A stretch of DNA of 64,000 bases from Nitrosopumilaceae archaeon (GCA_965208905.1 OZ242365.1:320001-384000); one strand, 5' to 3'; shown: positions 9,388 to 58,476, counted from the first letter of the stretch. Notes: generated by a model not told the origin, from the sequence alone. Translations and numbers: made by a program.

Positions 9388-10981
9388 ATAATTTCTTTTT
9401 GGAGTCGTGTCTATGATATGAACTATGCCTATAAGTAGCGGGGTTCCTCCCGCAAAGTCGGGTGATTACACCCCCCGCCATGCGGGATAGCCTGTCAGCC
9501 CAGTTGCTCCAGCAACCCTGTATGAGTGGTGTGGGATCGAGGATTACATCCACACCACGACGGACTTCGCCCAGACTGGCCGAAACCTTACGACCATATC
9601 GGGATACGGCGCTTGTTCGCCGTATGTTCTCCACTGCGTTGACGTCGCGATCTACGCCAACCGTATGGCAGCGGGTGCAGTCTTTTTTATGATAAGCTCC
9701 AGTTAGTGGGGTTCTACATGCAGCACATAGCTTGGATGTGTTGTGTGGACGCATATGTAATGCCTCTACTCCCAAAAATTGGGACTTTTCATAAATTAAA
9801 TTCGATGCTTTTCGCATCATGGCAGAATGTAACCTGCGACGCATATTATGGCCAAACTTCCCATTCTTCTGCCAACCATACGATATATGGGTTAAATCCT
9901 CCAACATCACCAAGCACCCGGATTGTGCGGCCCACTGTGCTATACATAACGCTATCACATTCAGCACATGTTCGTGGTGGCGCATGGCTTTGGCCACCCT
10001 GCGCTTTTTAGCATTCTTCCTTGATTTTGTGTGGTTATGTGGTATGCTCAATATGCATCTGCTCATCTGCTTCTTTATCTCGGCGGCCCTCTTGTGTTTG
10101 CCCTCCCTCTTGAGTTTATTGTATCTGCGTTTGAGTTTGCTGTGTAACTTGTGACCACCATGTGTGACTTGTTGCTTTTCTCTGCGCTCCTCCTCTTTCT
10201 TGTGTACAACACACCTTCCGGTACGTGCCGCATATGCGATATTATCATGTGTACGGGTATACGTATTGTTTACATCCTCAGTCTTTGCCCCCTCAATGGC
10301 CTGTATCGTGTATGATAGATCAAACTGTACCATTGTATCTTTATCACCTACGGTGATGTTCTTTTCATTAATATCCACGCCAATTACATCCTTTGGTGTA
10401 CCGCCCACACAGCCCACATCCGTAAGTAGTTCGATAATCTCTGACTTGCCGTGTGGGTGGGATTTTTCAACCTTGGGCACTTTGTTGTAATATGTAATGG
10501 TATATGTGGTTGGCGTGATCCACAACTCTCCCAACTCATTTTGCCCTATTTTACGTACCACATCTGAAGAGACGGGAATTGCTATCATATGTGGGTGTTT
10601 TGATGAGCCAACATTTGCAATAGCCATATATCCACCCGCTATCGGATTCAGCCTCCAATCTTGGTTTTTCAACTTTACAACCGGATTACGAAATATAGGT
10701 TCAGACACCTTCGTGCCCTGCGCAGCCTTTGTATTGTACGTTTTATGGGCGGCAACCCCGTCCCGTATGGCGGTCTGCGTTATGGACGAATATACTTTGG
10801 GGTCAGGGCCGCGCATTATATGATATATTAATGCGTTAACACCATAGGTATTCTTCCCCGTGTTATCTGCTATAATGTACGCCACTTCTGCCACCTTCCT
10901 GACATGTTCAAACACATGTCGCATGCCCAAATTTTTTGTGTATGGACGTGTTACTGCCCTGCTATTTTTGACTAGAGCCAT
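9317..10981 (-). CDS. tnpB: Large TnpB-like RNA-guided endonuclease (about 554 aa)
   Basis: RuvC IGVDINEKN / VMLEDLT / DRDVNAVENI, Zn finger CAAC...CTRC, TATA TTAAATAC about 22 bp upstream. ORF reads through the right TIR. Confidence 0.85.
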   Translation of the reverse strand: MALVKNSRAVTRPYTKNLGMRHVFEHVRKVAEVAYIIADNTGKNTYGVNALIYHIMRGPDPKVYSSITQTAIRDGVAAHKTYNTKAAQGTKVSEPIFRNPVVKLKNQDWRLNPIAGGYMAIANVGSSKHPHMIAIPVSSDVVRKIGQNELGELWITPTTYTITYYNKVPKVEKSHPHGKSEIIELLTDVGCVGGTPKDVIGVDINEKNITVGDKDTMVQFDLSYTIQAIEGAKTEDVNNTYTRTHDNIAYAARTGRCVVHKKEEERREKQQVTHGGHKLHSKLKRRYNKLKREGKHKRAAEIKKQMSRCILSIPHNHTKSRKNAKKRRVAKAMRHHEHVLNVIALCIAQWAAQSGCLVMLEDLTHISYGWQKNGKFGHNMRRRLHSAMMRKASNLIYEKSQFLGVEALHMRPHNTSKLCAACRTPLTGAYHKKDCTRCHTVGVDRDVNAVENIRRTSAVSRYGRKVSASLGEVRRGVDVILDPTPLIQGCWSNWADRLSRMAGGVITRLCGRNPATYRHSSYHRHDSKKKLCGGCSHVHDGNKIVCGCIYITTR

Positions 10982-11057
10982 CACATAGTACGGTTCAATA
11001 ACGTATTTAACACTATCCAACACACATCAACTATCACCCGACTTTGCGGGAGGAATC
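9442..11057 (-). mobile_element. TnpB element A: non-autonomous element with 25-bp TIR and 8-bp TSD
   Basis: TIR GGTTCCTCCCGCAAAGTCGGGTGAT at 9442-9466 and its inverse (1 mismatch) at 11033-11057. TSD AGTAGCGG at 9434-9441 and 11058-11065. Confidence 0.9.
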
Positions 11058-11098
11058 AGTAGCGGTAAGGCTTTTATGGATTGTAAAAACCGCATATT

Positions 11099-11410
11099 AT
11101 GATGCCCAGTTGCCCTGAATGCACTGCCACCGAGAAGAAGAAGGTTCAAGCTAGATACGAAGCTAGTGTTCCCGAGGAGGATCGCCGACGTGATGATTTG
11201 TACAAACTCTTTGATGCCATAGACTTTCCCATGAAGGCGGATCCAAGCACTAAGCACTTTATCTGTAAACGATGTGGATTATACGCTACCAGAGAGCAAG
11301 TCTCCGATATACGAGCCAGACTGAACCGTCGGGTAAAGACCCGTCAGGACATACAGGATGATTATTTAGACTGGTGGCAAAAGAGCAAAAAAGACAAAAA
11401 TTTAGCTTGA
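11099..11410 (+). CDS. Conserved thaumarchaeal Zn-finger hypothetical protein
   Basis: CPEC...CKRCG, DYLDWWQ tail. Confidence 0.75.
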   Translation: MMPSCPECTATEKKKVQARYEASVPEEDRRRDDLYKLFDAIDFPMKADPSTKHFICKRCGLYATREQVSDIRARLNRRVKTRQDIQDDYLDWWQKSKKDKNLA

Positions 11411-11412
11411 TA

Positions 11413-12177
11413 TTATTTATTAATTGATTTTCTAAAGACTTTAGCTATTATACTATCTGTTAGAAACGGTATTGCGTGTTTTATTATTACGCCGGCCCTG
11501 GCTATAGTGGGAACCGTTATCTCTGCCCGGGGAGAGTTTGAAGCTCGCAGTATGGCTTTGGCAACTGATTGTGGACTTAAAGCATATCCGGATTTGTCTA
11601 CAAATCCGGTGCGCACCATTATGGGACTGACCACCGTCACACCTATACCGCTTTCTAATAATTCATGTCGCAGTCCCTCTGAAAATCCCAGCATTGCAGA
11701 TTTTGATGCGCAGTATGCAGATATCATGGGAAGTCCAAAACTGGCGGCTAGTGATGCCACATTGACTATGTGCCCACTCCCCCTTTGCACCATATGTGGT
11801 AAAAGACCCTTTGTCATGTATACCATACCAAAATAATTTGTATTCATTATTTGTTTTATTTTAGAAATATCTGTATTTATGACAGTATCAATCTCTATTA
11901 TGCCTGCATTATTTACCAATATGTCGGGGCAGCCTATCTGGTCCAGTACGCGTTTTATAGTCTGGTTTACCTGTTGTTGATCTGTTACATCACATTTTAT
12001 TATAGTTATTTGGCCATTATCTTTTTTTATTTTTTTGTATAACGACTCTAAGAGATCTTCTCTTCGTGCTATGGCGATTACATGGGCCTTTTTATTGGCA
12101 AAGAGCAAGCTCGTTTCCCATCCTATACCTGAAGATGCACCGGTTACAAGGACTATTTTGTCATCAAATTTGGCCAT
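11413..12177 (-). CDS. Short-chain dehydrogenase/reductase
   Basis: TGASSGIG, NNAG, YCASK. Confidence 0.92.
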   Translation of the reverse strand: MAKFDDKIVLVTGASSGIGWETSLLFANKKAHVIAIARREDLLESLYKKIKKDNGQITIIKCDVTDQQQVNQTIKRVLDQIGCPDILVNNAGIIEIDTVINTDISKIKQIMNTNYFGMVYMTKGLLPHMVQRGSGHIVNVASLAASFGLPMISAYCASKSAMLGFSEGLRHELLESGIGVTVVSPIMVRTGFVDKSGYALSPQSVAKAILRASNSPRAEITVPTIARAGVIIKHAIPFLTDSIIAKVFRKSINK

Positions 12178-12239
12178 GTATCATATTGTCGCATATGGGT
12201 TATTTTGATTTTTTTATCACATGCATGAGATATAGACTA

Positions 12240-12390
12240 TGGCAATCAATTCGACACTAATCGTGGAGTAATTCTTCTTTCCATAGAAACATGCCTGAAG
12301 CCTCAGAGATGCGTTGGCATCTTTCTCTTTTTTGCATATTTCACGTATTGTTATATTGGCATGAAGTCGTCACCTTTGGGAAGTCATTTG
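12240..12390 (-). pseudogene. Possible transposase N-terminal HTH remnant (IS630-like)
   Basis: Minus strand translates to EICKKEKDANASLRLQACFYGKKNYS, which resembles KEKDxxxxxRLxA N-termini of IS630-type proteins; interrupted. Confidence 0.3.
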
Positions 12391-12564
12391 TTATTTATCA
12401 TAAAATTAGTAGTTCACACCGGTACTGTATATAGTAGGTTTTTATGCGAATTTAAATTATGACTTTGTAAGAACTTCAATCATGGCCACCATACAGTAGT
12501 GTTGATGTAAAAGTGAATTTTTATTAAGTATTTATTTTTATTTTTTAAAAAAATAAGTTATTTC

Positions 12565-13332
12565 CTAAATTACCAAAGAAAGAATGTTAGACGTAAACTC
12601 TCCAATATTGGTAGTATACAAGACAATGATACCCATCACCATGCTAAATACTCCTGCCGCATACCTAAAGAGTAATCGTACCCTCTTATGACGGCCTGCC
12701 AATACCAAAGGAATACCCAATAGACCACCCACCAGAGACATTCCAATTGTGGCACCTAAACCAAAGACAAGTGTGAATGCCAGTACAATGTCAGGCCCTT
12801 CCAGTGTAGCGGCAGTCAAGACTATAACGCCTCCACTTCCGGCTAGACCATGCACAAGTCCTATTATGTATGACTTGTGGGTATGGTGGTGTATTCCATT
12901 ATTATGCTCATGTTCGTGGGAATGAACTATTCCATTATTATGCCTGTGAAGGTGCTTGTGAGCAAATTCTAAAGGTGTCTTACCAAACACTACAGTTACA
13001 CCCAATATTAACAGTATCACACCCACCAGTATCTCTAGTCCAGAAAACATCCAACCTTGAATTAGTGATGCGGCCACATAAGCCAGTATTGAAAACAGTG
13101 CCAAAGTTGTGGCATGACCTGCTCCCCATACTGCACCCAGTATGGAGAAGCGTTGCATACTCTCTCGAATTCTTGTTCGTCGTGATTTGTCGACATGTTC
13201 TGCTCTAGCACTTAGGGCGCTCACTGTGGCAATATGATCTGGTTCCAGCGCATGCTGTAAACCCAAAATCAAACCCAGTCCCAATGCAAATGCAGGTGTA
13301 AGCATACCCACATCTGGAGATACATCCACCAT
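12565..13332 (-). CDS. HoxN/HupN/NixA/UreH-type nickel/cobalt transporter
   Basis: HALEPDH, His-rich loop HKHLHRH...HSHEHEH...HHHTH, GLVHGLAGSG. Confidence 0.88.
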   Translation of the reverse strand: MVDVSPDVGMLTPAFALGLGLILGLQHALEPDHIATVSALSARAEHVDKSRRTRIRESMQRFSILGAVWGAGHATTLALFSILAYVAASLIQGWMFSGLEILVGVILLILGVTVVFGKTPLEFAHKHLHRHNNGIVHSHEHEHNNGIHHHTHKSYIIGLVHGLAGSGGVIVLTAATLEGPDIVLAFTLVFGLGATIGMSLVGGLLGIPLVLAGRHKRVRLLFRYAAGVFSMVMGIIVLYTTNIGEFTSNILSLVI

Positions 13333-13789
13333 GTATGGTGTGTAGCATAGTATATTAAATTTGTAGGAATAAATTAACAGTGCGTGTGGTTGAACGGGAT
13401 AATAGTGGCAAAGTCATCAGAAATTTAGTGGCCAAGACTGGTAGGAGTATTGAACCTCAATTGTGTGTGCGCACCGACTATATCAGAACAACGCCGTATG
13501 GGCCATGTCGTGATGTTATATCACTAAAATTATAACACGTTATGGGAGGAAAACCAGCATGAGTGATACCCGTCAGATAATATAGGCACTGCGCATCTTT
13601 AAAGGCGTTACAACAATACAAACCATATGGACAAGCAGTACGCCATGGCAGTCATATTGATACTAATCGGCTAGGACTGACTCAGATTGGTGGCGGGCAG
13701 GCGATATTTCTTTTTGGTCTGGGTATTAGTGTTGTCATTATGGCTATAGTGTGAATTGTGGTCATCATAATCAAGGATATACGGCGTAA

Positions 13790-14050
13790 CTAGTAGTGAT
13801 GCATCTGTTTCTGTTCAATGCCCTCCTGCTCCCAGTAGTTGTGGTTTCTTCCGGGGTCTTTGTGAGTATGAACCTTACCATCAATGTGGGACTGTGTATT
13901 ATCCATTATGTCCTTCATGAATACATCATCGACTCTCAGTATTTGGTTGGCGGCCTCTACAGCAGCCTTTAGGGCCCTGTCTCTTTACTGCGCAAGTATC
14001 CACTATATTGCGTATATGTTTTACACTGTGAGATATTGTATCAATACTCC
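13790..14050 (-). pseudogene. C-terminal fragment of a His-rich thermosome-like chaperonin
   Basis: Reads IVDTCAVKRQ (frameshift) ALKAAVEAANQILRVDDVFM...SHIDGKVHTHKDPGRNHNY...MHHY*; the ILRVDD motif is typical of group II chaperonin C-termini. Confidence 0.65.
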
Positions 14051-14108
14051 ATCTACCACAAGTAATGATAGGCAGGTTCAGCCATACCCCACAAGACGCT
14101 AAATTATA

Positions 14109-16631
14109 TCATTTATAGTTTAAAACTAGTTCACGTATATCATTCGCAGATATCTCATTATTTAGAGTCAGTGAGAGTATATTTAGCAAAGCATCATTCA
14201 GTTTGGGGTTTGTAAAGAGCATATCCGCATCACTAGTTGATATGTCATCAATACCATCATCTAGTAGCTGCAACATAACTCTTAGAAGCGTTACCCTTTC
14301 AGACTCGGTAAGACCAAGCAGGGCATCGTTGATTGCAGTATGACTACATATACCCGCCACAACATCCGAAGAGTAGACATCCGGTATTATCACATTATTA
14401 GATACGGCAAATAGTAGCAACGTGGCTGGGCATGTAGACTCGCCGGTCGGTATCATTATTTGATCCATACCCGTGGATGGCATCTCGCCTGTATGCACTA
14501 TTTCGCCATCGTGTGTCAAAAAGTAGCGCAGTGTATCAGTACCCATTGAGTCTACATTTATGATGAGGGATTCATTTGAGGATGCAGCATCAAACTCAAC
14601 ACTAGTTACATGTGGATATGTAGGTTCAACGAAATGAGACCACATTCCGACTTTATACGGATAAGAGTCATCTCTGAACTCCCGTATTAGGGCTATACCA
14701 TCTTTATCATTGTATGATGAAAGATAAAATGATCCATGACCAATCTCGGCGTGGCCGTGTTGGTCTATCCACTTTATGCTGGCCAAATACCTATCAGTGT
14801 AATACGAGTTGTCCAGGCCGGCTATGGCTTTTGGAGCTATGGCATAATTTGCGAAATGTTCTAGGTATGCACGAATTAGGATAACATCATCACTATCAAT
14901 CACAGACAACCATGGGACACTCTTGCTGGTGGACTCGGTCGACGAAAATGCTCCCTTATCATCTTTAACAATCTGCTCCATTGCAAAGAATATCTCCCAT
15001 GGTGTGCTTGTCCATCGTGTGGCCGTGGTTCCAATCTCATCTTCATCAAAGTGCCAATAGTTGACATACACCTCTAGTGTGTCATCATCTAGTTGGCGAA
15101 CTGCTACAAAGGTGTCTTCAAGGAACGGTCCTACTGTAGTCGTATACTCAGAGTCTTTTGTATTGTCTGAGACTCCAGTGTTAGTACCCCATTCATACAT
15201 AAAGTAAACACCAAAGAGTATGTCCCGCATGTCAATGGTAGGGCCATGATGCCAATCACTGAAGGTGTAATCCATCGTTACAACACTAATAGCAGTGGTA
15301 CCAGAGCCTACAGGGGTCCATTTTTGTATGTATGAATTCCAAGTTATGGCATCAGAGGGCACTTCCAAGGTGCCATCAGGGCCAGCAGTGTCAACTGAGC
15401 GTTCTACTCTCACTGGGATTATACCACCAGTATATGGATGTGAGATTGCTGCAGAGTCTGAGAGAGGGTTGACTATATGGCGACTGTACACATCACCGTA
15501 TCCGGCCACAGGGTTCCAGGATGACTGGCCAAGATGTTTCATGCCAACTCGGAGTACAACATCACCTGTCTGAACATTGTTTAAAGTGAGAGGGTTGGTT
15601 ATGCCGCCACTTACAGAGTTTATCACACCTTTAACATTATTGTTCACTACAAATGTGTCATATGGTGCAGCCACAAATACGCGCACTGCCTCCTGTACGC
15701 CCAAAGTTAGAGCCTCGCGGAGCAGTTGTGTACGTTCATCCTCGTCTTCATATTCACCATTATACACTGTACGGGTGATTCTATCGAGTTTGTCGTTCTC
15801 ATATGACCAAAATTCAGGGTTCTGAGCGCCAGGCATATTGGTACGCCATGGTGCATAGAATACTGCCAAACTACTATCATCATACTTGTTAAAACTGCCT
15901 CCCCAACCTTCCGTATATACATGCCAGCCTAAATCTGCGGGATTAGAGCCATATACCACCTCGTATGCCAGTGCCAGGTTCCCATACATTCTCTCCACTA
16001 CAAACCCCATATTCTCAAGATTAGAGGCTAGTGTGTTCCCAATGGAGTGTCGTATCGGGTCATCATCCCGGATAAATAACTTTAGTGTGACAGGTTTGTC
16101 ATCCATCATCCAGACATCTTTCTTCATGGTGGCGCCAGCTTCGGTCATGGCGGCATCAATCATTGTCTTGGCGGCGGCTAGATTGTACTGTATACCAAAG
16201 GATGCAATCGGCTCTAACATTCTGGTGTAGTCAGGATCAAATGGTGCATAGGGGGATATAATAGCGGAGCCGTACCCATCCAGTAGTTGGGATACAATAT
16301 CTTCTCTGTCTATCATGTAATTTATGGCAGACCGTATCTTTGTAATGCTAAATGGATTAAATTCATCAGTAGGTGCTGGATTCAACAGTATGCTAAGGGT
16401 ACCTCCAGCTGGGTTTGTGTATACATCAAGGTTGTCAAATCCTTCCAAGAGATGCGCAGGTACATTATGATAGTACATATCTAATAGGCCATCATCAACC
16501 AGTTCCAGGGCATGCTCGGCACTGTCCACACGATAGAACAGTACAGAGTCAACGTAGGGAAGGGCTGCAGCTGATGATACTGTCGATACTACGCATAATA
16601 GAGCAGTCAGTACTAAGATCTGCGTATTCAC
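14109..16631 (-). CDS. ABC transporter peptide/nickel substrate-binding protein (family 5) with C-terminal extension
   Basis: Signal peptide; NPFSITKIRSAINYMIDR and WHHG..IDMRD motifs. Confidence 0.85.
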   Translation of the reverse strand: MNTQILVLTALLCVVSTVSSAAALPYVDSVLFYRVDSAEHALELVDDGLLDMYYHNVPAHLLEGFDNLDVYTNPAGGTLSILLNPAPTDEFNPFSITKIRSAINYMIDREDIVSQLLDGYGSAIISPYAPFDPDYTRMLEPIASFGIQYNLAAAKTMIDAAMTEAGATMKKDVWMMDDKPVTLKLFIRDDDPIRHSIGNTLASNLENMGFVVERMYGNLALAYEVVYGSNPADLGWHVYTEGWGGSFNKYDDSSLAVFYAPWRTNMPGAQNPEFWSYENDKLDRITRTVYNGEYEDEDERTQLLREALTLGVQEAVRVFVAAPYDTFVVNNNVKGVINSVSGGITNPLTLNNVQTGDVVLRVGMKHLGQSSWNPVAGYGDVYSRHIVNPLSDSAAISHPYTGGIIPVRVERSVDTAGPDGTLEVPSDAITWNSYIQKWTPVGSGTTAISVVTMDYTFSDWHHGPTIDMRDILFGVYFMYEWGTNTGVSDNTKDSEYTTTVGPFLEDTFVAVRQLDDDTLEVYVNYWHFDEDEIGTTATRWTSTPWEIFFAMEQIVKDDKGAFSSTESTSKSVPWLSVIDSDDVILIRAYLEHFANYAIAPKAIAGLDNSYYTDRYLASIKWIDQHGHAEIGHGSFYLSSYNDKDGIALIREFRDDSYPYKVGMWSHFVEPTYPHVTSVEFDAASSNESLIINVDSMGTDTLRYFLTHDGEIVHTGEMPSTGMDQIMIPTGESTCPATLLLFAVSNNVIIPDVYSSDVVAGICSHTAINDALLGLTESERVTLLRVMLQLLDDGIDDISTSDADMLFTNPKLNDALLNILSLTLNNEISANDIRELVLNYK

Positions 16632-16982
16632 GGTTCTAAATGCATAATTGTATGTTAAAAGCGTTTTGAAGAGTTATATGGGAATCACATGTTTGAGTCC
16701 GAGCGATACTATGATGGTATGGTTCTTGTGCAAACACGGTTGTTTCCCAGCTTGCAACATTACCCATCACGCCAGAGAACGATGGTACATGGAACACCTC
16801 GCTCTTTGGCATGACGTGTAATGTGGTGGGCGCAGTATCAACCGTATTTACGAGAGAACCTAAATTCTGTCAATTGGTAGTCTATCGTCTTATGAAGTGG
16901 GAGACTAAAACATTAGAGCAGATAATACAGGACACTAAAGGTGAATACAGATTATGTTCGGCAACGACATTTCAGACGAGTG

Positions 16983-18440
16983 TCACACATCAAAGTACAG
17001 GTAGAACTCGTGGGGATGGGGCCGTACAGATATCTCCAATTGATCTTGCTTTCCCAACTCTATCAGTCTCTCAATAACATCGTGAGTAAATATTGGATTT
17101 AGAAAGTCACAGTCACTCTCTAGCGAGTCTAGTGCTTCACCCAAAGTAGCTGGTAATGTATCTATACCCCTCTGCCTACGTTCCTTCTTACTCATCTTGA
17201 AGATGTCTTCCTGAACGGGGTCAGCAGGACTTGTCTTCTTTCTGACACCATCCATACCCGCAGCAGTAACTGCTGAAAAGACCAGATACGGATTTGATGA
17301 CGGATCCGGTGCTCTAAACTCCAGCCGTTTCAATTTGGCATGTCTAGAACCCTTGAAGTGTTTTGGTACACGAACTATTGCAGAACGGTTACTTGAACTC
17401 CATGCAATATAGGCAGGAGCTTCATAGCCAGGAACCAGTCGATGATAAGAGTTTGTAGTAGGATTACAGATTGCAGATAGTGCTTTTGCGTGATCCATAA
17501 TGCCCCCACAAAAGTACAAGGCCAACTGGCTTAATTCATCAGGCGCATTCTCATCAAAGAATGCGTTCTCATCACCCTTCCAAAGACTGACGTTGGTGTG
17601 CATACCGCTTCCCGCATCCATGGTTATAGGTTTGGGCATCATCGTGGCCACCTTGTTGAATTTTTGCGCCACGTTTCTGACAATAAACTTGTAGGACTGG
17701 GCCGAGTCGGCGGCATTGGTCAGCTTATCATACATAATATCTATCTCACATTGACCTGCAGTAGCCACTTCATGGTGATGATTATCACATAATATGCCAA
17801 AACTAGAGTTCAGTATGTTGACACACTCATTACGGAAGGGTGTCAATGTGTCTGAAGGAGTGCTAGGATAGTAGCCGCGTTTGAGTCCCATCGGATAGCC
17901 AGTACCCTCCTGATTCCATGGAGCTTCTTGGGATTCTATAGAGTAAGACTGTCCTTTATAGGGTGTCAATACATCCCAATGTATCTTATCAAAGACAAAG
18001 AATTCAACTTCCGGACCCCAAAAGCTCCCGTATCCGGCATCTGTAATGAATTGTTCAGCCTTTTGCGCAATACCTCTAGGATCTCGGGACAGCCTTCCGC
18101 GACCCTCGCCCCAGTATACATCACAGATTAACCGTGCTGTCCTGTTTTCGGTAAGCCAGGGTATTATGGCGTATGTGTTTGGGTCAGGCTTTAGTACAAG
18201 ATCTGAATCCTCTATGCTGGCAAATCCCACTATGGATGAACCGTCCAGCTTTGGTAGACCGTATTTCATCTGCTCTGGAGTAAAGGTCTTTCTGGATATT
18301 GTGGTGTGATGGAAACGGCCAGGTAGGCTGGTAAACTGCATATCAATGAATCTAATCCTGTCCTGTTCTAGCATCTCAAATACTTGTTCTGAAGTGTATG
18401 TGATACGTTTAGGGTCTCCACCGTTGAATCTGTAAGGCAA
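16983..18440 (-). CDS. glnA: Glutamine synthetase type I
   Basis: DGSSI, HHHEVATAGQCEI, GSGMH, NRSA, LEFRAPDP. Confidence 0.97.
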   Translation of the reverse strand: MPYRFNGGDPKRITYTSEQVFEMLEQDRIRFIDMQFTSLPGRFHHTTISRKTFTPEQMKYGLPKLDGSSIVGFASIEDSDLVLKPDPNTYAIIPWLTENRTARLICDVYWGEGRGRLSRDPRGIAQKAEQFITDAGYGSFWGPEVEFFVFDKIHWDVLTPYKGQSYSIESQEAPWNQEGTGYPMGLKRGYYPSTPSDTLTPFRNECVNILNSSFGILCDNHHHEVATAGQCEIDIMYDKLTNAADSAQSYKFIVRNVAQKFNKVATMMPKPITMDAGSGMHTNVSLWKGDENAFFDENAPDELSQLALYFCGGIMDHAKALSAICNPTTNSYHRLVPGYEAPAYIAWSSSNRSAIVRVPKHFKGSRHAKLKRLEFRAPDPSSNPYLVFSAVTAAGMDGVRKKTSPADPVQEDIFKMSKKERRQRGIDTLPATLGEALDSLESDCDFLNPIFTHDVIERLIELGKQDQLEISVRPHPHEFYLYFDV

Positions 18441-18487
18441 TTATTAATTCAGTTATATAGAACCGTGATTTAAGCTTTAAGAACAAC

Positions 18488-19036: not shown

Positions 19037-19104
19037 ATTAGTACAGCTCGTCTGTCTTGTCACACCCATGGATTAAATAAATGAGGCACATCTACTGAAG
19101 CGTA

Positions 19105-19604: not shown

Positions 19605-19643
19605 AATGCAAGAATAGCTCTTCTAACTAATATAGTTTCAAGA

Positions 19644-21109
19644 GGGAATTATATACAAAAGTACACAACCCCAATTCTGAGAGTTAATGCCTGAACCACG
19701 GATCGCGTCCATACAACTCCCCTTAAATACCAGCATACCGTATTATATATTATGATACGAATAGTTAAGGTACCGCTACGGAGAGATGTGCGGTTCGCGG
19801 AGTGGGCGCACCGCACGAATCATGCGTCAAGATATGTGTACAACCGCGCCGTATCAGAGTATTTGTTTGGCGGCGAATACATGGAGAGGGTGGTAGTGGA
19901 CATCCTGCAGCCCTTTAAACTACCGGGCAAGCTGGATTTTACATCAGGTATGCTGGACGATGACTACCATACATATGATTTTGGGCCGTCAAAGAGGGCA
20001 TTAAAGTACGGCATGTTCAAGCAGCTTACGGAGTGGCGCGCTGAACATGCATGGGTATCTGACTTGCCTATGGTGTTTGGCAGGGGCGCCATACAGGATG
20101 CCTCCGTCGCATGTAGACGAGTTGTAGATGACAACTCCGGCCACGCGCCATACCGCCGCAAAGATGGCCGCATCATACTTAGTTCCGTTACACCGCCTGT
20201 ACGGAAAGATAGCCATACGGTACATATCCCCGGATATGGTATTGTAGAGACCGCCAATCCCATCAATGTATTATGGGACATGCGGTCATTCAAGATAGTT
20301 GATGTTACCAAACGGGTGGACAAGCATACCGTACAATCAGACCACATGTTTGAGCTGCATATTGCCATATATGAACCGATGGAACCGCACCGTACTACGG
20401 GTACAATACGGGGTGTCGATGTGGGAGGCAAGCACCTCGCCGTCACGGTAGATACGGACGGCAACGTTACAATACACAACACCCGCCATAGAGCAATCCT
20501 GCGGGAGATTGACGCTCTCAAGAGTTTGCGCGACCGCAAGACACGGCATGGCCGGAAGTGGCATATATTGAATGACCAAATAAAGCGGCTATACAGGAAG
20601 GCCAACAACATAGCTGCGAACACCATAAATCAGACGATTGTACAGATAACCAATGGTGTGGACGCAGTCGTGGTCGAATCGCTCTCCGTAAAGGATATGA
20701 CCACCCATGGCGGGAATTACAAACGCGCCATGAACCGTTCAATGCGGGAGAACCATGTTGGGGAGTTCCTGCGCAAGCTTGCGCAGTGGTGTGATATACA
20801 CAACATACCGCTGTTGGGGGCATCGGCCAAATATACGAGCCAGACGTGCCATGTGTGTGGGACGGTGGATGCCGAGTCGCGTATATCACGCGACAAATTC
20901 ATTTGCACTAATTGTACCAGGGTATTCCACGCGGATGTCAATGCCGCCTGGAATATTCTGTATAGGGCGGCGGGGAAGATCGTCCTAAGACGGCCAGGGC
21001 ACAAGGAGGACTACAAGCCAACACCTTCTATGCTCCACTGTATACAGAAAAGTCGTCAGAAAAGGCATGAGTGTACAGCCGAGGCTGTGTACTTTTGTAT
21101 ATAATTCCC
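19644..21109 (+). mobile_element. TnpB element B: 24-bp perfect TIR and 8-bp TSD
   Basis: TIR GGGAATTATATACAAAAGTACACA at 19644-19667 and its inverse at 21086-21109. TSD TTTCAAGA at 19636-19643 and 21110-21117. Confidence 0.93.
19752..21104 (+). CDS. tnpB: TnpB-like RNA-guided endonuclease (450 aa)
   Basis: SRYVYNRA, GVDVGGKHL / VVESLSV / HADVNAAWNI, CHVC...CTNC. Stop codon lies inside the right TIR. Confidence 0.92.
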   Translation: MIRIVKVPLRRDVRFAEWAHRTNHASRYVYNRAVSEYLFGGEYMERVVVDILQPFKLPGKLDFTSGMLDDDYHTYDFGPSKRALKYGMFKQLTEWRAEHAWVSDLPMVFGRGAIQDASVACRRVVDDNSGHAPYRRKDGRIILSSVTPPVRKDSHTVHIPGYGIVETANPINVLWDMRSFKIVDVTKRVDKHTVQSDHMFELHIAIYEPMEPHRTTGTIRGVDVGGKHLAVTVDTDGNVTIHNTRHRAILREIDALKSLRDRKTRHGRKWHILNDQIKRLYRKANNIAANTINQTIVQITNGVDAVVVESLSVKDMTTHGGNYKRAMNRSMRENHVGEFLRKLAQWCDIHNIPLLGASAKYTSQTCHVCGTVDAESRISRDKFICTNCTRVFHADVNAAWNILYRAAGKIVLRRPGHKEDYKPTPSMLHCIQKSRQKRHECTAEAVYFCI

Positions 21110-21111
21110 TT

Positions 21112-21418: not shown

Positions 21419-21790
21419 GGGAATTATATACGAAGTTAACGCCAATTGGTGTCAATCTTGTCTTGTCCTAGAGCCTTTGATAGTGGCGCGTATGGTGTTG
21501 CATCTCTTTCGAGATCAGCAGCTGCTGCCAAGTGTCTGCCGCCAACACCAACACCCCGCATATTGCCAGTCTTTTTTGGTTTGTACGACACTACTATGCA
21601 TTTGGTTATCTCCCCGCCAAGTAGGTATGATGAGACAGTGTTGTTGTAAACATACCATAAAATGTATGATTCGTGCGGACGGTCCACTCGTATAGTTTTG
21701 TGTTATGCTACAATCTTACCTTGTAGACCGTGTCATGGGTTCCTTTTAGAGGTGACTTTGTATATTGCGCTACTTTCGTGTATGATTCCC
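21419..21790 (-). mobile_element. Internally deleted (MITE-like) derivative of the GGGAATTATATAC TnpB family
   Basis: GGGAATTATATACGAAG at 21419, degenerate inverse TTTCGTGTATGATTCCC ending at 21790, TSD TAAATTTA at 21411-21418 and 21791-21798. Interior encodes YVYNNTVSSYLLGGE and GVGVGGRHLA, similar to TnpB B. Confidence 0.85.
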
Positions 21791-27304: not shown

Positions 27305-27507
27305 GTGGCCAACTCGGGTTTGAGCATCCAGACCACTGCTAACATTACAAATGGTATAGACACAATTCCGATTATGCCCAGTATGGTAAACACTTGAGAC
27401 TCTGGAATGTCAGGGTTCCCCACTACCCAAGGCAGAGGCAGTGTCACCACTACCCATATAACACCCAAGAGTATCAAAAGTCGTATCTTGCCTTTTTTGT
27501 TTAACAT
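27301..27507 (-). CDS. Small membrane protein
   Basis: 68 aa, 2 TM. Confidence 0.7.
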   Translation of the reverse strand: MLNKKGKIRLLILLGVIWVVVTLPLPWVVGNPDIPESQVFTILGIIGIVSIPFVMLAVVWMLKPELAT

Positions 27508-27578
27508 TATATTGTAGTCTCCATATACGCTTTAAAATCCATACCATGCGGCAGATAAACAAAAGTTTATGCATAATG

Positions 27579-27705
27579 GGTTCCTCTCGCAAAGACGGGT
27601 GGTGACGATAGTGTCTCGTATGATAGTCCCCAGTAAGGACACCGCGACAGACTGCGCAAAGTTTGGAAGTATGATAGGGGTTCATTTTAACGGCTTCGGC
27701 CCCTA
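27579..27705 (-). pseudogene. Truncated family-A TnpB remnant with right TIR
   Basis: GGTTCCTCTCGCAAAGACGGGTGGT at 27579 matches TIR A. Minus strand reads LGAEAVKMNPYHTSKLCAVCRGVLTGDYH vs LGVEALHMRPHNTSKLCAACRTPLTGAYH in TnpB A. Confidence 0.8.
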
Positions 27706-32057: not shown

Positions 32058-33477
32058 GGGAATTATATACCTGGGTAGACAAGGCTAGTTCTGGAGGGTA
32101 CATGTTTATAAAGTATTATGATGTATAAAACTACATGTATCGATCTTATGGCTTCCGCGTAAACCTGACGCGCTCTCAGGCGCGTCACATATCCAAAATA
32201 CGGGACTCACAGCGGTTCGTGTACAACTGGGCCGTGGAGCGGCTGCTTACTAACCCCACACTCACTACATATGACCTCTCCAGAGAGTTCACCAAGGTGA
32301 GGCGTTCCGTATCGTGGCTGCAAACAGTGGAGCGCATATACCAAAATACGGCCATCCATCAGGCCCGCACTGCTGCGGATGTCTCGAACAAATACGGCAA
32401 CGGCGAGCTGAGTTTCCGCGCCAGAAAGCGCGATAATAAAAAGGCAGTATCATGTGATGTACAGCCGCGATTTGTGGACAACAGGCACGCGTCATTGCCG
32501 GGCCTTGGTGTTGTTGAGTTGCCTGAGGAGCAGCCATATCAATTTCCACACAACTGGCTGTATGGCTCAAGGTCTTTCCATTTGGTGCAGGTTACACCAA
32601 AGTCGTGGGGGCACGTCAAGTCATGTGACCATATCTATCGGCTGCACATAACATATGACGTACCAGTACCCGAACGGCGCGCCAAGACCGGTGTTGTTGC
32701 CGGCATAGACAGGGGGATAACAAATCCAACGGTTGTCTGTAAGACAGACCACAACACTTCGTGTATAATATCGTATGACACGGCAACCGCATTCCGCACG
32801 AACCGTACATGGAATGATGGTGTGCGCCGTACCATATCACACCACAACAAGCATTCTCATACAACACACAAGATGAAACGCAAACGAGAAAAGTACAATC
32901 GTGGTAATGCGAATGACCGCGAGTATGCGGAGTGGCTTCTAGCCAAGAAGATATGCGAGGGCGTGGATGTAATATATGTCGAACAGCTCAACCTTGAGGC
33001 CATGAGCAGGCGCGGTGGTAGGCACAAGAAAGGTCTGAACAGGGGAATGAGGTTTATTCGGCATTATGCAATATTGCGAAAGATCCGCACCATCGCAGAG
33101 CGGCTGGGCATCCGTGTAGTAGAGGTAAGTCCAAAGCACACAAGCCAGGAGTGCAGTGTGTGCGGCTACACAAACAAGGAGAACCGAGACGGGGAGATGT
33201 TCAAGTGTCTCAAATGTGACCACGTGGCAAACGCCGACGGCAATGCGTCGGTGAATATGATTCAACGGGGGACCGGTATGAAGGTTCCCGCGGGGGAAGG
33301 AATGGCCCTCGAAAGGCGTGAAATGGGCCGGACCCGGAAGCCACCTGTTTGTGCAGTTCCGGACGCCAGACGGCGGCGTGAGAATCAAGCGTGCAATCGA
33401 CCCAAAACATCAAGCGTCATGAAGCACCTGGGAATGTACGCGTATGTTACGCGTGCATACCCAGGTATATAATTCCC
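32058..33477 (+). mobile_element. TnpB element C: 20-bp perfect TIR and 8-bp TSD (7/8)
   Basis: TIR GGGAATTATATACCTGGGTA at 32058-32077 and its inverse at 33458-33477. Flanks TTGTTTAT (32050-32057) and TTGTTCAT (33478-33485). Confidence 0.9.
32135..33472 (+). CDS. tnpB: TnpB-like RNA-guided endonuclease (445 aa)
   Basis: QRFVYNWA, AGIDRGIT / IYVEQLN / NADGNASVNM, CSVC...CLKC. Stop codon lies in the right TIR. Confidence 0.92.
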   Translation: MYRSYGFRVNLTRSQARHISKIRDSQRFVYNWAVERLLTNPTLTTYDLSREFTKVRRSVSWLQTVERIYQNTAIHQARTAADVSNKYGNGELSFRARKRDNKKAVSCDVQPRFVDNRHASLPGLGVVELPEEQPYQFPHNWLYGSRSFHLVQVTPKSWGHVKSCDHIYRLHITYDVPVPERRAKTGVVAGIDRGITNPTVVCKTDHNTSCIISYDTATAFRTNRTWNDGVRRTISHHNKHSHTTHKMKRKREKYNRGNANDREYAEWLLAKKICEGVDVIYVEQLNLEAMSRRGGRHKKGLNRGMRFIRHYAILRKIRTIAERLGIRVVEVSPKHTSQECSVCGYTNKENRDGEMFKCLKCDHVANADGNASVNMIQRGTGMKVPAGEGMALERREMGRTRKPPVCAVPDARRRRENQACNRPKTSSVMKHLGMYAYVTRAYPGI

Positions 33478-56614: not shown

Positions 56615-56619
56615 CTCAA

Positions 56620-56772
56620 TCACTCGGGTATCGATATGGTCTGTATCTTGCCATCTTCAGCCTTTACAAACAAAAACCGATTATCTTTAAAGATGAAGGT
56701 GATTCCTCCTTCCTTGTCTGGTTCTTCCACTTCTAGGAGAGGTTGTCCTAGTAGACCATCATACTTTGCCAT
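56620..56772 (-). CDS. Small hypothetical protein (50 aa; below ORF-track cutoff)
   Basis: MAKYDGLLGQPLLEVEEPDKEGGITFIFKDNRFLFVKAEDGKIQTISIPE; TATA-like tataaaaa upstream. Confidence 0.6.
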   Translation of the reverse strand: MAKYDGLLGQPLLEVEEPDKEGGITFIFKDNRFLFVKAEDGKIQTISIPE

Positions 56773-56971
56773 ACAATCTACACTTGAGCGACTTTTTTAT
56801 ATCTTAGGTTCCTCTGATCAATATACAGTGTGCCACCTGCACTATCCAAAAGGGGTATTAGTCATTATGATGATACGGCATTATTCCGGCTGTCCTCCCC
56901 GTATTGTACACTCCAATATCTGAGCACTACGCATGCGTTTTATCTCTAGTGTATAACTACATCTTAGTCTA

Positions 56972-58456
56972 TGAGCTGGTAACTAAACGTCGCGTAGGTT
57001 ACCGGCCTGCCGTGCGGCAGATGTTGGTGGCGAACCACCATCCAGAGGAGTTACATTGAGACGTTCTTTGTTGGCTGGACTTTGACGCCCGACCTTTGGA
57101 CATCCTGTACCGGCCATCACGTCGTTAACACTTGGAGGAGGCATGCAAGTGCCAAGATGTATCTTCCCTCTCAAGACCATTCCGGCCTTGTCTTGCAGCG
57201 CGTAAACGGCTTGCGCACGCTTAGACCACTGCACTGTGTAAAAAGTGAATAATATGTTGAATGCCGCGTTGACATCCGCGTGCATCAGAACACCGCAATC
57301 ATAACACCGAAACTGGCTGCTTTTGCGCCATGTGTTTGTGTTGCCGCATACACAGCACTGTTGTGAGGTGCCTTTCTGGTCTATCTCGACATACTCTGTA
57401 TTATACTTGAGTGATTGTTGCGCAAGCAAGTTCCGCGCCTCACCACACTTGCTTTGTCGCATCAATTTATTCTTGGCTTTCTGACCCTTCCCTTTTGTGG
57501 TCATGGTTCTGAGGTTCATGCCCTCCATGATGATTTTATCGCACTGCAGCATCAGTTTTTTGGAGAACTTGCGCAGATCATCCATCTGTTTATTTCCCAT
57601 CTTCTTGTAGACCGATTGCAGCTGCGCATGCAAGTTGCGCCACTTGTGAGAATGAAGCTTGCACCGCGCCATCTTCTTTTGTGTTCGCGCGATGTTCCGC
57701 ATGGTATCTTTTTCACGAAGTGTCAGCATCGCAATACCCCCATCCGACTTTCCAACTATAAGCGTGTGCTTGCCGCCCATGTCAATACCCGCGTGTATGC
57801 CGGTACATACACGGTCCGGGACGTGCTCACGAATAGTTACGTGCAACTCGAACTGCCTCTCTTTATCATCGTGATTTGTAACATCCACAATCTTGTAGGA
57901 CTGTGAGGATTTTGGAAGCGTGTCCTTTTGCAGTTTGAAGGGTTTGTCGCACTTTGGGAAGTATACAGTATTACCCTTGGACTTTTTGCCCAATGGAACC
58001 GCGCTGTATAGTGGATATATCTTACGCCCGTACTTTACATGTGCACAACCCTCCATCTTATAGCCTTCTTGTATTGCGCCACGAACCCAAGCTTGGGGGA
58101 TTGTCTGGCATATGGTGGCTACTTTATTGGTATCAAATACCGACAGGCCGGCCCGACGCGCCTCAATTCCGGCATTGAGCCACATGTGCGATTCAGAATA
58201 CATGGAGTCAAAGTATTGTGTTAGTTTGGTTGATGTCTTTAAACGGTACTGCAGAGTCCTAATGATGTACTTTTCATCTTTGTACTTCATATATTACACA
58301 TGATTCGGTGATATTTAAGCGGTGTTCCTATCCAAAGGTTGTACAAAGTCCAGCCAACAAAGAACGTCTCAATGTAACTCCTCTGAATGGCGGTTTGCCG
58401 CCAACATCTGCCATACGGCAGGCCGGTAACCTACGCGACGTTTAGTTACCAGCCCA
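56972..58456 (-). mobile_element. TnpB element D: 113-bp TIR and 8-bp TSD
   Basis: IR 56972-57084 vs 58344-58456 (7 mismatches, no indels), ends TGRGCTGGTAAC. TSD TTAGTCTA at 56964-56971 and 58457-58464. Confidence 0.93.
56983..58290 (-). CDS. tnpB: TnpB-like RNA-guided endonuclease (435 aa)
   Basis: GIDMGGKH / IIMEGMN / HADVNAAFNI, CCVC...CYDC. C-terminus and stop codon lie inside the TIR. Confidence 0.9.
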   Translation of the reverse strand: MKYKDEKYIIRTLQYRLKTSTKLTQYFDSMYSESHMWLNAGIEARRAGLSVFDTNKVATICQTIPQAWVRGAIQEGYKMEGCAHVKYGRKIYPLYSAVPLGKKSKGNTVYFPKCDKPFKLQKDTLPKSSQSYKIVDVTNHDDKERQFELHVTIREHVPDRVCTGIHAGIDMGGKHTLIVGKSDGGIAMLTLREKDTMRNIARTQKKMARCKLHSHKWRNLHAQLQSVYKKMGNKQMDDLRKFSKKLMLQCDKIIMEGMNLRTMTTKGKGQKAKNKLMRQSKCGEARNLLAQQSLKYNTEYVEIDQKGTSQQCCVCGNTNTWRKSSQFRCYDCGVLMHADVNAAFNILFTFYTVQWSKRAQAVYALQDKAGMVLRGKIHLGTCMPPPSVNDVMAGTGCPKVGRQSPANKERLNVTPLDGGSPPTSAARQAGNLRDV

Positions 58457-58476
58457 TTAGTCTACCTGTATATCTA
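58344..58476 (+). ncRNA. Putative second (left-end, outward-facing) omega-RNA-like transcript
   Basis: Non-coding inverted copy of the tnpB 3' hairpins with a compensatory change; AT-rich ATATTTAAG at 58311-58319 upstream. Confidence 0.45.

What the first reader, a model, noticed from the sequence alone, without database searches (positions are those of the whole stretch)
9434..58464. All four TnpB genes sit in transposase-less elements with TIRs and 8-bp TSDs (DDE-type ends)
Seen: elements at 9442-11057, 19644-21109, 32058-33477 and 56972-58456 each carry only a tnpB-like gene with RuvC D-E-D and a Zn finger. Their TIRs are 25, 24, 20 and 113 bp, and their 8-bp direct flanks are AGTAGCGG, TTTCAAGA, TTGTT(T/C)AT and TTAGTCTA. 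Established: canonical prokaryotic TnpB travels with IS200/IS605 (HUH Y1; subterminal hairpins, no TIR or TSD) or IS607 (serine recombinase), while TIR plus 8-bp TSD is typical of DDE families such as IS6 and IS1595. Inference: in this archaeon TnpB has been captured by DDE-type non-autonomous elements, paralleling the association of eukaryotic Fanzors with TIR transposons. I cannot confirm that this is undescribed.
Basis: partly seen in the sequence, partly recalled or inferred. Interest (0 to 1): 0.92.

Follow-up and report, generated by a model that had tools for sequence, protein, structure and literature searches.

The report
TnpB cassettes riding DDE transposon ends
In this archaeal genome the RNA-guided nuclease gene tnpB travels in small transposase-less cassettes whose ends match IS1595-type and IS6-like transposons; such borrowing is known in principle, but these two partner families have not been named for it.

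Summary
All four elements have the stated inverted ends and 8-bp flanking duplications. A sister genome (G005, flanks 96-99% identical) lacks all four and carries each 8-mer once.

The genome has 75 TnpB-domain matches but no Y1 (IS200/IS605) or serine (IS607) transposase.
- E2 and E3 share their terminal 13 nt (GGGAATTATATAC) with four intact IS1595-family elements of the same genome. Those elements also make 8-bp duplications.
- E1 shares its ends with an IS6-like element. That element is decayed here but intact in sister genomes, with 8-bp duplications.
- The partner of E4 is uncertain.

TnpB genes are under purifying selection (dN/dS about 0.2).

New here: a family-specific motif lies immediately 5' of the upstream duplication, on the tnpB-upstream side only (E1: TA in 10 of 11 copies; E2: G in 15 of 17). 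I read it as the TAM. The guide would then begin with the 8-bp duplication. This is inferred, not shown.

Altae-Tran et al. 2023 already described DDE-associated TnpBs with inverted ends, and solo TnpBs mobilised in trans. IS1595 and IS6 partners were not named in the texts I could read. Verdict: new variant of a known kind.

The parts
9442..11057 (-). E1: transposase-less TnpB cassette with IS6-like ends. TIRs at 9442-9466 and 11033-11057; tnpB ORF 9317-11023 on the minus strand, running through the right-end TIR into the flank.
   Evidence: 13 full-length copies in the genome. Empty site in G005.
9434..9441 (.). E1 target-site duplication AGTAGCGG, copy on the tnpB-downstream side. The second copy is at 11058-11065.
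   Evidence: G005 has one 8-mer (ACTGGCGG) at this site.
11066..11068 (-). E1 candidate TAM: TTA on the tnpB strand, immediately 5' of the upstream TSD copy (11058-11065).
   Evidence: T at -2 and A at -1 in 10 of 11 family copies, against 4 and 3 of 11 at the equivalent right-end positions. The motif pre-exists in 3 of 3 empty E1 sites in G005. That it is a TAM is inferred.
9442..9690 (-). E1 3' region ending in the right TIR: putative omega-RNA scaffold.
   Evidence: Fold of -102.3 kcal/mol, z = -3.13. The last 300 nt are 0.93-0.97 identical among copies, against 0.86-0.92 elsewhere. Covariation is weak: 1 compensatory pair of 77. No Rfam match. Inferred.
19644..21109 (+). E2: transposase-less TnpB cassette with IS1595-type ends. 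TIRs at 19644-19670 and 21083-21109; tnpB at 19752-21104.
   Evidence: 15 full-length copies. Empty sites in G005 and G008.
19636..19643 (.). E2 target-site duplication TTTCAAGA, upstream copy. The second copy is at 21110-21117.
   Evidence: A single copy in G005 and in G008.
19632..19635 (+). E2 candidate TAM: ATAG, immediately 5' of the upstream TSD.
   Evidence: G at -1 in 15 of 17 copies (p = 2e-8), against 5 of 17 at the equivalent right-end position. 3 of 4 left ends in G008 also have G. At this particular site G005 and G008 read T where this genome reads G. Inferred.
20870..21109 (+). E2 3' region ending in the right TIR: putative omega-RNA scaffold.
   Evidence: Fold of -82.7 kcal/mol, z = -3.68. 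Covariation inconclusive. Inferred.
32058..33477 (+). E3: transposase-less TnpB cassette with IS1595-type ends. 20-nt TIRs; tnpB at 32135-33472; TSD TTGTTTAT at 32050-32057 and TTGTTCAT at 33478-33485.
   Evidence: 7 copies. G005 has a single TTGTTCAT.
56972..58456 (-). E4: transposase-less TnpB cassette with 113-114-nt TIRs (56972-57084 and 58344-58456). tnpB at 56983-58290 on the minus strand; TSD TTAGTCTA at 56964-56971 and 58457-58464.
   Evidence: 11 diverged copies at 73-81% identity. G005 has a single CTAGTCTA. DDE partner uncertain.
21419..21790 (-). Degraded, internally deleted TnpB remnant. It starts with the IS1595-type TIR GGGAATTATATAC at 21419; the ORF fragment is at 21436-21687.
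   Evidence: Mostly shared with G005, which lacks about 110 bp of it.
27410..27685 (-). Remnant of the 3' end of an E1-type TnpB, with an IS6-type TIR at 27579-27602.

Best explanation
Each element is a 1.4-1.6-kb non-autonomous cassette bounded by terminal inverted repeats. Its only gene is an apparently functional tnpB, with an intact RuvC D-E-D triad and a zinc finger. Its 3' part folds stably and ends in the right TIR.

Shown:
- The cassettes insert with an 8-bp (once 9-bp) target duplication, like DDE transposons.
- They are recent, because they are absent from a 96-99% identical sister genome.
- Their ends are those of DDE elements. E2 and E3 carry the terminal 13 nt of intact IS1595-family elements of the same genome. 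E1, and a fifth family E5, carry the TIR of an IS6-like element that is intact in sister genomes.

Inferred:
- Those DDE transposases move the cassettes in trans.
- TnpB with an omega-RNA read out through the right TIR acts as a homing or retention nuclease. The guide would be the 8-bp duplication plus the downstream flank. The TAM would be the family-specific motif found immediately 5' of the duplication on the left side. An unoccupied allele would then read TAM-target and be cut.

The partner of E4 is not identified.
For: Ends and duplications.

Empty sites with one 8-mer: 7 of 7 resolvable sites in G005, and also G008 for E2.

Genome content: 75 PF07282 matches, 0 Y1_Tnp, 0 Resolvase.

TIR classes: 64 of 74 TnpB loci have at least one end of the three TIR classes, and 47 have both ends of one class.

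IS1595 partner:
- 4 intact genes.
- 4 of 4 elements start GGGAATTATA (two of them GGGAATTATATAC) and have 8-bp TSDs.
- NF033547 scores 176.7 bits against a cut-off of 75.

IS6-like partner:
- A frameshifted copy with E1-type TIRs at C1:926302-927837.
- Intact 385-388-aa transposase elements with the same TIRs and perfect 8-bp TSDs in G009 (two) and G004 (one).
- PF13610 scores 30.4 bits against a threshold of 27.

Purifying selection: dN/dS is 0.21, 0.21 and 0.17 for E1, E2 and E5.

Flank motif:
- E1: T at -2 and A at -1 in 10 of 11 copies.
- E2: G at -1 in 15 of 17 copies.
- E5: TT at -3 and -2 in 7 of 8, and G at -1 in 5 of 8.
- The equivalent right-end positions are unbiased.
- The motif differs between families that share one TIR type.
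- It is kept by deletion derivatives: an E1-derived MITE has ATA|C and an E2-derived one has ATAG.
- It is present in G008 copies, 3 of 4.

3' folds: z = -3.1 and -3.7.

The same TIR type with solo TnpB and an 8-bp TSD occurs in 10 of 21 loci scanned from five other genomes (hits in four of them), spanning two genera.
Against: - The omega-RNA, its guide and the TAM are therefore inference.
- Covariation in the 3' region is weak: E1 has 1 compensatory pair of 77, and in E2 most changes come from one or two diverged rows. There is no Rfam match.
- At the window's own E2 site, both empty alleles (G005, G008) read T where this genome reads the 'TAM' G. The other E2 empty site does have the G.
- No intact IS6-like transposase with E1-type TIRs is present in this genome. 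The 13 other IS240-like ORFs have different ends.
- The E4 ends resemble IS6-like ends only in about 6-8 terminal bases.
- The TIR classification by pattern is loose: 8 loci matched two classes.
- IS6-family elements are thought to move by cointegrates without excision (PMC7986276, passages), which gives a retention nuclease less to do.
Confidence: 0.8

Rival explanations
1. The cassettes are DDE-mobilised as above, but the motif 5' of the duplication is the target preference of the DDE transposase, or of an asymmetric transpososome, and not a TAM. TnpB would be mere cargo, or would do something other than cut empty sites.
For: DDE transposases often have sequence preferences. E2 duplications are AT-rich, like those of the autonomous IS1595 copies. 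The window's E2 empty alleles lack the G. No RNA or cleavage data exist.
Against: The motif is one-sided and tied to tnpB orientation, although the TIRs are near-perfect. For E2, G is at -1 in 15 of 17 copies against 5 of 17 at the mirror position. For E1, TA is in 10 of 11 against 4 and 3 of 11. The motif differs between families that share a TIR type: E1 has WTA and E5 has TTG; E2 has G while E3 has t, a, t. The 4 autonomous IS1595 copies read c, g, g, c. Numbers for E3 (n = 3) and for the autonomous copies (n = 4) are small.
Confidence: 0.25
2. They are ordinary IS200/IS605 (IS1341-type) elements moved by a Y1 HUH transposase, and the inverted ends and 8-mers are incidental.
For: Standard family models name the gene as IS200/IS605 or IS607 TnpB-like, below their cut-offs. 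Solo TnpB elements are usually filed this way (PMC3627910, passages).
Against: 0 Y1_Tnp and 0 Resolvase matches in a 99.57% complete one-contig genome. TIRs of 20-114 nt. A different 8-bp duplication at each copy, and single 8-mers at 7 of 7 empty sites.
Confidence: 0.02
3. TnpB itself, with its RNA, directs or performs the insertion (RNA-guided transposition), which would explain why insertions sit next to a TAM.
For: Insertions lie at a fixed distance (8 bp) from the motif in 10 of 11 E1 copies and 15 of 17 E2 copies.
Against: A guide copied from the previous site cannot match a new site. The RuvC triad is intact, unlike the nuclease-dead effectors of known RNA-guided transposons (recalled). 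Ends and duplication length equal those of TnpB-less IS1595 and IS6-like elements.
Confidence: 0.03

Closest known systems
DDE-associated TnpB branches DDE-1 to DDE-6 (Altae-Tran et al. 2023, PNAS, PMC10691335; passages read)
   Same: These are prokaryotic TnpBs inside elements with inverted terminal repeats. The tnpB 3' end lies close to a transposon end. Solo TnpBs have ends like those of transposase-bearing copies and are proposed to be mobilised in trans.
   Different: The DDE families named in the texts I read are IS630 (PNAS main text) and ISL2, IS630 and IS1031 (2026 review PMC13565253). IS1595 and IS6 are not named. Here the transposase is never in the same element as tnpB. Nearly the whole TnpB complement of one archaeal genome is of this kind. 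The duplication is 8 bp and variable.
Fanzor1 / Fanzor2* in eukaryotic TIR transposons (Bao & Jurka 2013, PMC3627910; Yoon et al. 2023, PMC10711439; passages read)
   Same: A TnpB-family nuclease as cargo of TIR and TSD transposons of several superfamilies, often in non-autonomous copies.
   Different: Those are eukaryotic or viral. Their short fixed TSD is reported to be part of the TAM and of the RNA scaffold. Here the 8-bp TSD varies from copy to copy and the conserved motif lies outside it, so the TSD would have to be the start of the guide (inferred).
IS1341-type solo TnpB elements of the IS200/IS605 family
   Same: One gene, tnpB. A structured 3' non-coding part at the right end. A short conserved motif on the left flank; E1's WTA(C) resembles the TTAC quoted for IS608 in PMC13565253.
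   Different: Those lack TIRs and TSDs and depend on a Y1 transposase (PMC3627910, PMC13565253). Here TIRs and 8-bp TSDs are present and no Y1 gene is in the genome.
Non-autonomous derivatives of IS families: MITEs and mobile insertion cassettes (the MIC term is recalled, not from a call)
   Same: IS ends plus a target duplication, no transposase, in some cases a passenger gene. TnpB-less MITEs with the same TIRs exist here.
   Different: The passenger is an RNA-guided nuclease. For IS6, the family review (PMC7986276, passages) lists only two MITEs and one passenger-bearing member, and does not mention TnpB.

Membership tests
TnpB (RNA-guided nuclease, OMEGA effector) | TnpB family and domain models match | tested here: met
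   PF07282 is above its threshold in 4 of 4 and PF01385 in 3 of 4. NF040570 scores 123.8 bits against a cut-off of 100 for E2, but only 30.6 for E1.
TnpB (RNA-guided nuclease, OMEGA effector) | RuvC D-E-D triad and CxxC...CxxC zinc finger | tested here: met
   E2 aligned to solved TnpB 8iaz: GVDVGG, VVVESL and HADVNAAWNI line up. For E1, E3 and E4 the motifs were read by eye in the translations.
TnpB (RNA-guided nuclease, OMEGA effector) | omega-RNA encoded at the 3' end, with the guide beyond the right end | tested here: inconclusive
   Stable folds with z = -3.1 and -3.7. Weak covariation. No Rfam match. No reads could be laid.
IS200/IS605 family element (IS1341 group) | Y1 HUH transposase in the element or in the genome | tested here: not met
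   0 matches to PF01797 in the whole genome, while the control genomes did give matches.
IS200/IS605 family element (IS1341 group) | No terminal inverted repeats and no target duplication | tested here: not met
   TIRs of 20-114 nt and 8-bp TSDs. Single 8-mers at empty sites.
IS607 family element | Serine recombinase transposase | tested here: not met
   0 matches to PF00239 in the whole genome.
IS1595 family (E2 and E3 as non-autonomous derivatives) | Ends shared with elements that encode an IS1595-family DDE transposase | tested here: met
   The terminal 13 nt GGGAATTATATAC are identical to the ends of C1:1770047-1772736 and C1:1043578-1046414. Their transposase scores NF033547 176.7 against 75 and PF12762 138 bits.
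IS1595 family (E2 and E3 as non-autonomous derivatives) | 8-bp target duplication | tested here: met
   4 of 4 autonomous copies. 12 of 17 E2 copies and 2 of 3 E3 copies with at most 1 mismatch.
IS1595 family (E2 and E3 as non-autonomous derivatives) | Transposase gene inside the element | tested here: not met
   The only long ORF is tnpB. They are therefore derivatives, not IS proper.
IS6 family (E1 as non-autonomous derivative) | Short TIRs and an 8-bp target duplication (as given in PMC7986276) | tested here: met
   A 25-nt TIR starting GG. 8-bp TSDs with at most 1 mismatch in 7 of 11 E1 copies. Intact relatives L033, L039 and L037 have perfect 8-bp TSDs.
IS6 family (E1 as non-autonomous derivative) | Partner transposase belongs to the IS6 family | tested here: inconclusive
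   The best NCBIfam model is IS6 (NF033587) at 73.8 bits, below its cut-off of 125. PF13610 scores 30.4, just above its threshold of 27. The protein is 388 aa with an N-terminal zinc-binding domain, against the usual 213-254 aa (PMC7986276).
IS6 family (E1 as non-autonomous derivative) | Cointegrate (copy-in) transposition | not testable with these tools
   Needs an experiment.
DDE-associated TnpB branches (Altae-Tran 2023) | Inverted terminal repeats around tnpB | tested here: met
DDE-associated TnpB branches (Altae-Tran 2023) | Placement of the protein in one of branches DDE-1 to DDE-6 | not tested
   The tree and sequence lists are in supplements or on Zenodo, which I could not see.

The most novel reading that the evidence does not exclude
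In these archaea the OMEGA nuclease has been fitted onto DDE transposons that make a long, variable 8-bp duplication. The TAM lies outside the duplication and the duplication itself forms the first 8 nt of the guide. Because a DDE transposase cannot know the TAM, the near-universal TAM next to surviving insertions would mean that TnpB decides which insertions persist. That would be a nuclease-imposed retention or homing filter acting on otherwise promiscuous DDE insertions. It would also explain how about 75 copies from at least five TnpB lineages could accumulate on two or three borrowed sets of ends without any IS605-type transposase.
Probability: 0.45. Interest if true: 0.75.

Novelty: new variant of a known kind. 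Interest (0 to 1): 0.55.

Why it matters
TnpB is the ancestor of Cas12 and is normally explained through its partnership with the scarless Y1 and serine transposases. A 2026 review (PMC13565253) calls DDE plus OMEGA combinations rare in prokaryotes and asks whether inflexible target recognition is the reason.

This genome is a natural counter-example at scale. Nearly all of about 75 tnpB copies sit on IS1595-type or IS6-like ends. Insertions are recent, empty sites are available for comparison, and the candidate TAMs are testable. It offers a direct way to ask whether RNA-guided retention works with cut-and-paste or copy-in DDE transposition.

It also matters for annotation. These genes are routinely labelled 'IS200/IS605 family', which is wrong for the mobile element that carries them.

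Tried and rejected
1. RNA evidence. The look-up of sequencing runs listed 10 RNA runs, labelled sponge or marine metagenome, with word shares of 0.12-0.38, and six unlabelled runs with shares of 0.71-0.93. None could be laid, so I draw nothing from them about expression or habitat.

2. Rfam. With the gathering threshold on the whole window the only match was a tRNA. With the E-value mode on 9300-21300 there were two chance-level hits outside the elements. No known omega-RNA or IS605-orfB family matched.

3. Covariation in the 3' regions. Too little independent variation to support or reject a structure.

4. Partner of E4.
- The 13 IS240-like ORFs were scanned for TIR plus TSD. Only two have an E4-like terminus, and on one side only.
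- A 3,602-bp IS6-like element has ends GGAACTGGTGCATC that share only nGnnCTGG with E4 ends.
- The weak IS1595-like ORFs at C1:139459, 1403835 and 781017 proved to be end-less fragments.
- I rejected all of these as proof of a partner.

5. The IS6-like element was searched for in 40 genomes of the family. It was found in 0 of 40 (only one of them of the same genus, the rest of other genera). The genus search then found it in 7 of 9.

6. My first TIR/TSD scan of the DDE loci timed out and was rewritten.

7. The loose scan includes spurious pairs (for example lengths 2177, 941 and 2638). I therefore rely on the family-motif tables.

8. In one search the sets 'E2' and 'E2b' overlap almost entirely, because my pattern allowed 2 mismatches. 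I report only E2 (n = 17).

9. The 75th PF07282 row (504647-504754, below the cut-off and overlapping another row) was dropped before all counts of 74.

10. Literature. Searches found no paper that links TnpB with IS1595 or IS6 ends. The supplements of PMC10691335 may list such cases, and I could not see them.

Full report
OBSERVATION

All four elements are as described.
- E1 (9442-11057) has 25-nt ends matching at 24 of 25 positions. AGTAGCGG stands on both sides.
- E2 (19644-21109) has ends of about 27 nt and TTTCAAGA on both sides.
- E3 (32058-33477) has perfect 20-nt ends, with TTGTTTAT on one side and TTGTTCAT on the other.
- E4 (56972-58456) has 113-114-nt ends at 94% identity and TTAGTCTA on both sides.

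Each element holds one long ORF with TnpB domains. E2 aligns to a solved TnpB with the RuvC D, E and D motifs and the zinc finger in place. For the other three I read those motifs by eye in the translations. The window has exactly four TnpB-domain matches. It also has two degraded remnants, at 21419-21790 and 27410-27685.

EMPTY SITES

The window is G000:C1:320001-384000, in a 2.21-Mb one-contig genome. A genome of the same genus, G005, is 96-99% identical in the flanks. It lacks all four elements and carries one copy of each 8-mer:
- TTTCAAGA for E2 (G008 has this empty site too).
- ACTGGCGG for E1.
- TTGTTCAT for E3.
- CTAGTCTA for E4.

Three further copies elsewhere in the genome gave the same result:
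- The E2 copy at C1:864610.
- The E1 copy at C1:891631, which has a 9-bp duplication.
- The E1 copy at C1:894636.

That makes 7 of 7 resolvable sites. Two other E1 sites (C1:872692 and C1:906661) could not be read because G005 is rearranged there. The duplications are therefore made on insertion, and the insertions are recent.

GENOME-WIDE PICTURE

The genome gives 75 matches to the TnpB TNB domain. It gives none to the Y1 transposase of IS200/IS605 and none to the serine recombinase of IS607. Completeness is 99.57%.

Each window element belongs to a multicopy family. There are 13, 15, 7 and 11 full-length copies of E1 to E4, with a different 8-mer at each copy.

- A fifth family, E5 (for example C1:441999-443514), shares the E1-type ends.
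- By end motifs, 64 of 74 TnpB loci carry at least one end of three TIR classes. 47 carry both ends of one class: 21 IS1595-type, 21 IS6-type and 5 E4-type. 10 are unclassified. The patterns are loose, and 8 loci matched two classes.
- A family-blind scan found TIR plus an 8-bp duplication at 36 of 74 TnpB loci, against 24 of 300 random loci.
- Between copies, dN/dS is 0.21 (E1), 0.21 (E2) and 0.17 (E5), so the proteins are kept functional.

PARTNERS

IS1595 type (E2 and E3).
- Four intact IS1595-family transposase genes are present.
- All four elements begin GGGAATTATA and have perfect 8-bp duplications.
- Two of them (C1:1770047-1772736 and C1:1043578-1046414) share the full 13-nt GGGAATTATATAC with E2 and E3.
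- The transposase passes the curated IS1595 models.
- These elements carry a DNA methyltransferase-HNH passenger.

IS6-like type (E1 and E5).
- The TIR recurs around a frameshifted IS240-type DDE gene at C1:926302-927837.
- In sister genomes the same element is intact. It is 1.45 kb, encodes a 385-388-aa transposase, has the same TIRs and has perfect 8-bp duplications: CGCCATCG and CCAATTTG in G009, AGCAAAAG in G004.
- Its best family model is IS6. It scores below NCBI's cut-off and just above Pfam's threshold, so I call it IS6-like.

E4. I found no convincing partner. Its termini share only a few bases with ends of other IS6-like elements of the genome.

A MOTIF NEXT TO THE DUPLICATION

I oriented every copy by tnpB. 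The bases just 5' of the upstream duplication are then conserved in a family-specific way:
- E1: T at -2 and A at -1 in 10 of 11 copies. The exception is the copy with the 9-bp duplication, where the motif is shifted by one. W at -3 in 11 of 11.
- E2: G at -1 in 15 of 17 copies (p = 2e-8). Both exceptions lack a duplication. A at -4 and T at -3 in 11 of 17.
- E5: T at -3 and -2 in 7 of 8, and G at -1 in 5 of 8.

Controls and extensions:
- The mirror positions beyond the right end are unbiased (E1: 4 and 3 of 11; E2: 5 of 17).
- E3 shares E2's terminal 13 nt but reads t, a, t (n = 3).
- The four autonomous IS1595 copies read c, g, g, c.
- Deletion derivatives that keep the 3' region keep the motif.
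- 3 of 4 E2-type left ends in G008 have the G.
- The motif pre-exists in 3 of 3 empty E1 sites and in 1 of 2 empty E2 sites.
- At the window's own E2 site, G005 and G008 read T where this genome reads G.

In an unoccupied allele this motif directly precedes the 8-mer plus right flank. That is the sequence an RNA read out of the right end would carry as its guide. I therefore read the motif as the TAM.

This is inference.
- No reads could be laid.
- The 3' regions fold stably, with z = -3.1 and -3.7, but covariation is weak.
- Rfam has no match.

The main rival is a one-sided target preference of the transposases.

DISTRIBUTION

Relatives of the E2 TnpB (E at most 1e-20) were found in 8 of 201 genomes sampled from the class. 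That count includes this genome, 4 of 4 other sampled genomes of the genus, and 3 of 47 of a second genus.

I scanned 21 loci from five other genomes. Ten are solo-tnpB elements with GGGAATTA(T/C)ATAC-type ends and an 8-bp duplication. They lie in four of those genomes (G006, G002, G121, G187), spanning both genera. The nearest named records are MAGs titled Cenarchaeum sp..

WHAT IS KNOWN

- Bao and Jurka 2013 state that TnpB-only elements lack TIRs and TSDs (PMC3627910, passages).
- Altae-Tran et al. 2023 report six DDE-associated TnpB branches, all with inverted terminal repeats. They also report solo TnpBs with near-identical ends, 'mobilized by transposases in trans' (PMC10691335, passages).
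- A 2026 review names ISL2, IS630 and IS1031 as the DDE families and calls such combinations rare in prokaryotes (PMC13565253, passages).
- For Fanzors, the short TSD is described as part of the TAM and of the RNA scaffold (PMC10711439 and PMC13565253, passages).
- The IS6 family review does not mention TnpB (PMC7986276, passages).
- Seven full-text searches found nothing that links TnpB to IS1595 or IS6 ends.

VERDICT

The principle is already published.

What is new:
- The partner families, IS1595 and IS6-like.
- The strictly trans arrangement.
- The scale of it in one thaumarchaeal genome that has no IS605 or IS607 transposase.
- The candidate TAM lying outside a variable 8-bp duplication.

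Noticed in passing
window 19635; G005:C1 near 1654838; G008:C169 near 5422: The base just 5' of the E2 duplication is G in this genome but T in both empty alleles. It is either a chance SNP, a change that made the site a target, or a change selected after insertion. If the G is part of a TAM, the T alleles would escape cleavage.
   Followed up: partly
G005 compared with G000, whole genome: G005 has flanks 96-99% identical to this genome but no E1, E2 or E3 family member at all. Copies within this genome differ by 8-20% (dS 0.26-0.38). G008 has more distant flanks (78-86%) but E1 and E2 copies at 82-92%. This suggests an influx of already diverged copies, possibly by horizontal transfer.
   Followed up: partly
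G000:C1:1770047-1772736, 1043578-1046414 (L003); C1:1337692-1341293 and 1851328-1854929 (L006): The autonomous IS1595 elements carry an N6/N4 DNA methyltransferase fused to an HNH domain (intact in one copy, split in the other). A 3,602-bp IS6-like element carries a methyltransferase next to its 414-aa transposase.
   Followed up: partly
G000:C1:1337692 and C1:1851328: The two identical 3,602-bp IS6-like copies have exchanged flanking 8-mers: GTCCGTTG and AAAATAAC each occur once at each copy. One copy also has a 358-bp tandem repeat of its end. This points to recombination between the copies, or to an IS26-like exchange of flanks.
   Followed up: no
G000:C1:140415 and C1:1116873: An 8,265-bp segment, duplicated at 99.9% identity, begins with an E4-type terminus (TGGGCTGGTAACTTATCC). 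It encodes a 767-aa ORF followed by a 232-aa ORF. It may be a large cargo transposon. The ORFs were not run against any family library.
   Followed up: no
G005:C1:1093200-1096800 (L047): In G005 a different 3.3-kb element, with ends GGGTGTGTCCCAC and a 9-bp duplication CAAACAGCA, sits directly beside the empty 8-mer where this genome has an E1 copy (C1:894636). It holds three ORFs, one with a CxxC motif.
   Followed up: no
window 56972-57084 and 58344-58456: E4's 113-nt TIR means that the 3' end of tnpB, the side of the putative guide RNA, is repeated in inverted form at the 5' end. If it were transcribed outward, it could give a second guide against the other flank.
   Followed up: no
window 39944-39956, near the tRNA at 39711-39785: A lone IS1595-type end (ATATATAATTCCC) preceded by a short hairpin-like repeat, about 160 nt downstream of a tRNA gene. 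It may be a solo end or a tiny MITE.
   Followed up: no
window 5821-6908; G000 at 14 or more other places: A repeat of about 0.9 kb has at least 14 copies at 99.8-100% identity in the genome. A 93% copy overlaps a 204-aa HTH-containing ORF (5821-6435) in the window. It is a separate, very recently active IS.
   Followed up: no
G000:C1:999540-1000124; 2089312-2089952; 1954623-1955336; 658457-658571: TnpB-less deletion derivatives and MITEs with the same three TIR types and 8-bp duplications. The E1- and E2-derived ones keep the 3' region, like the stand-alone omega-RNA elements described for IS605-type systems.
   Followed up: partly
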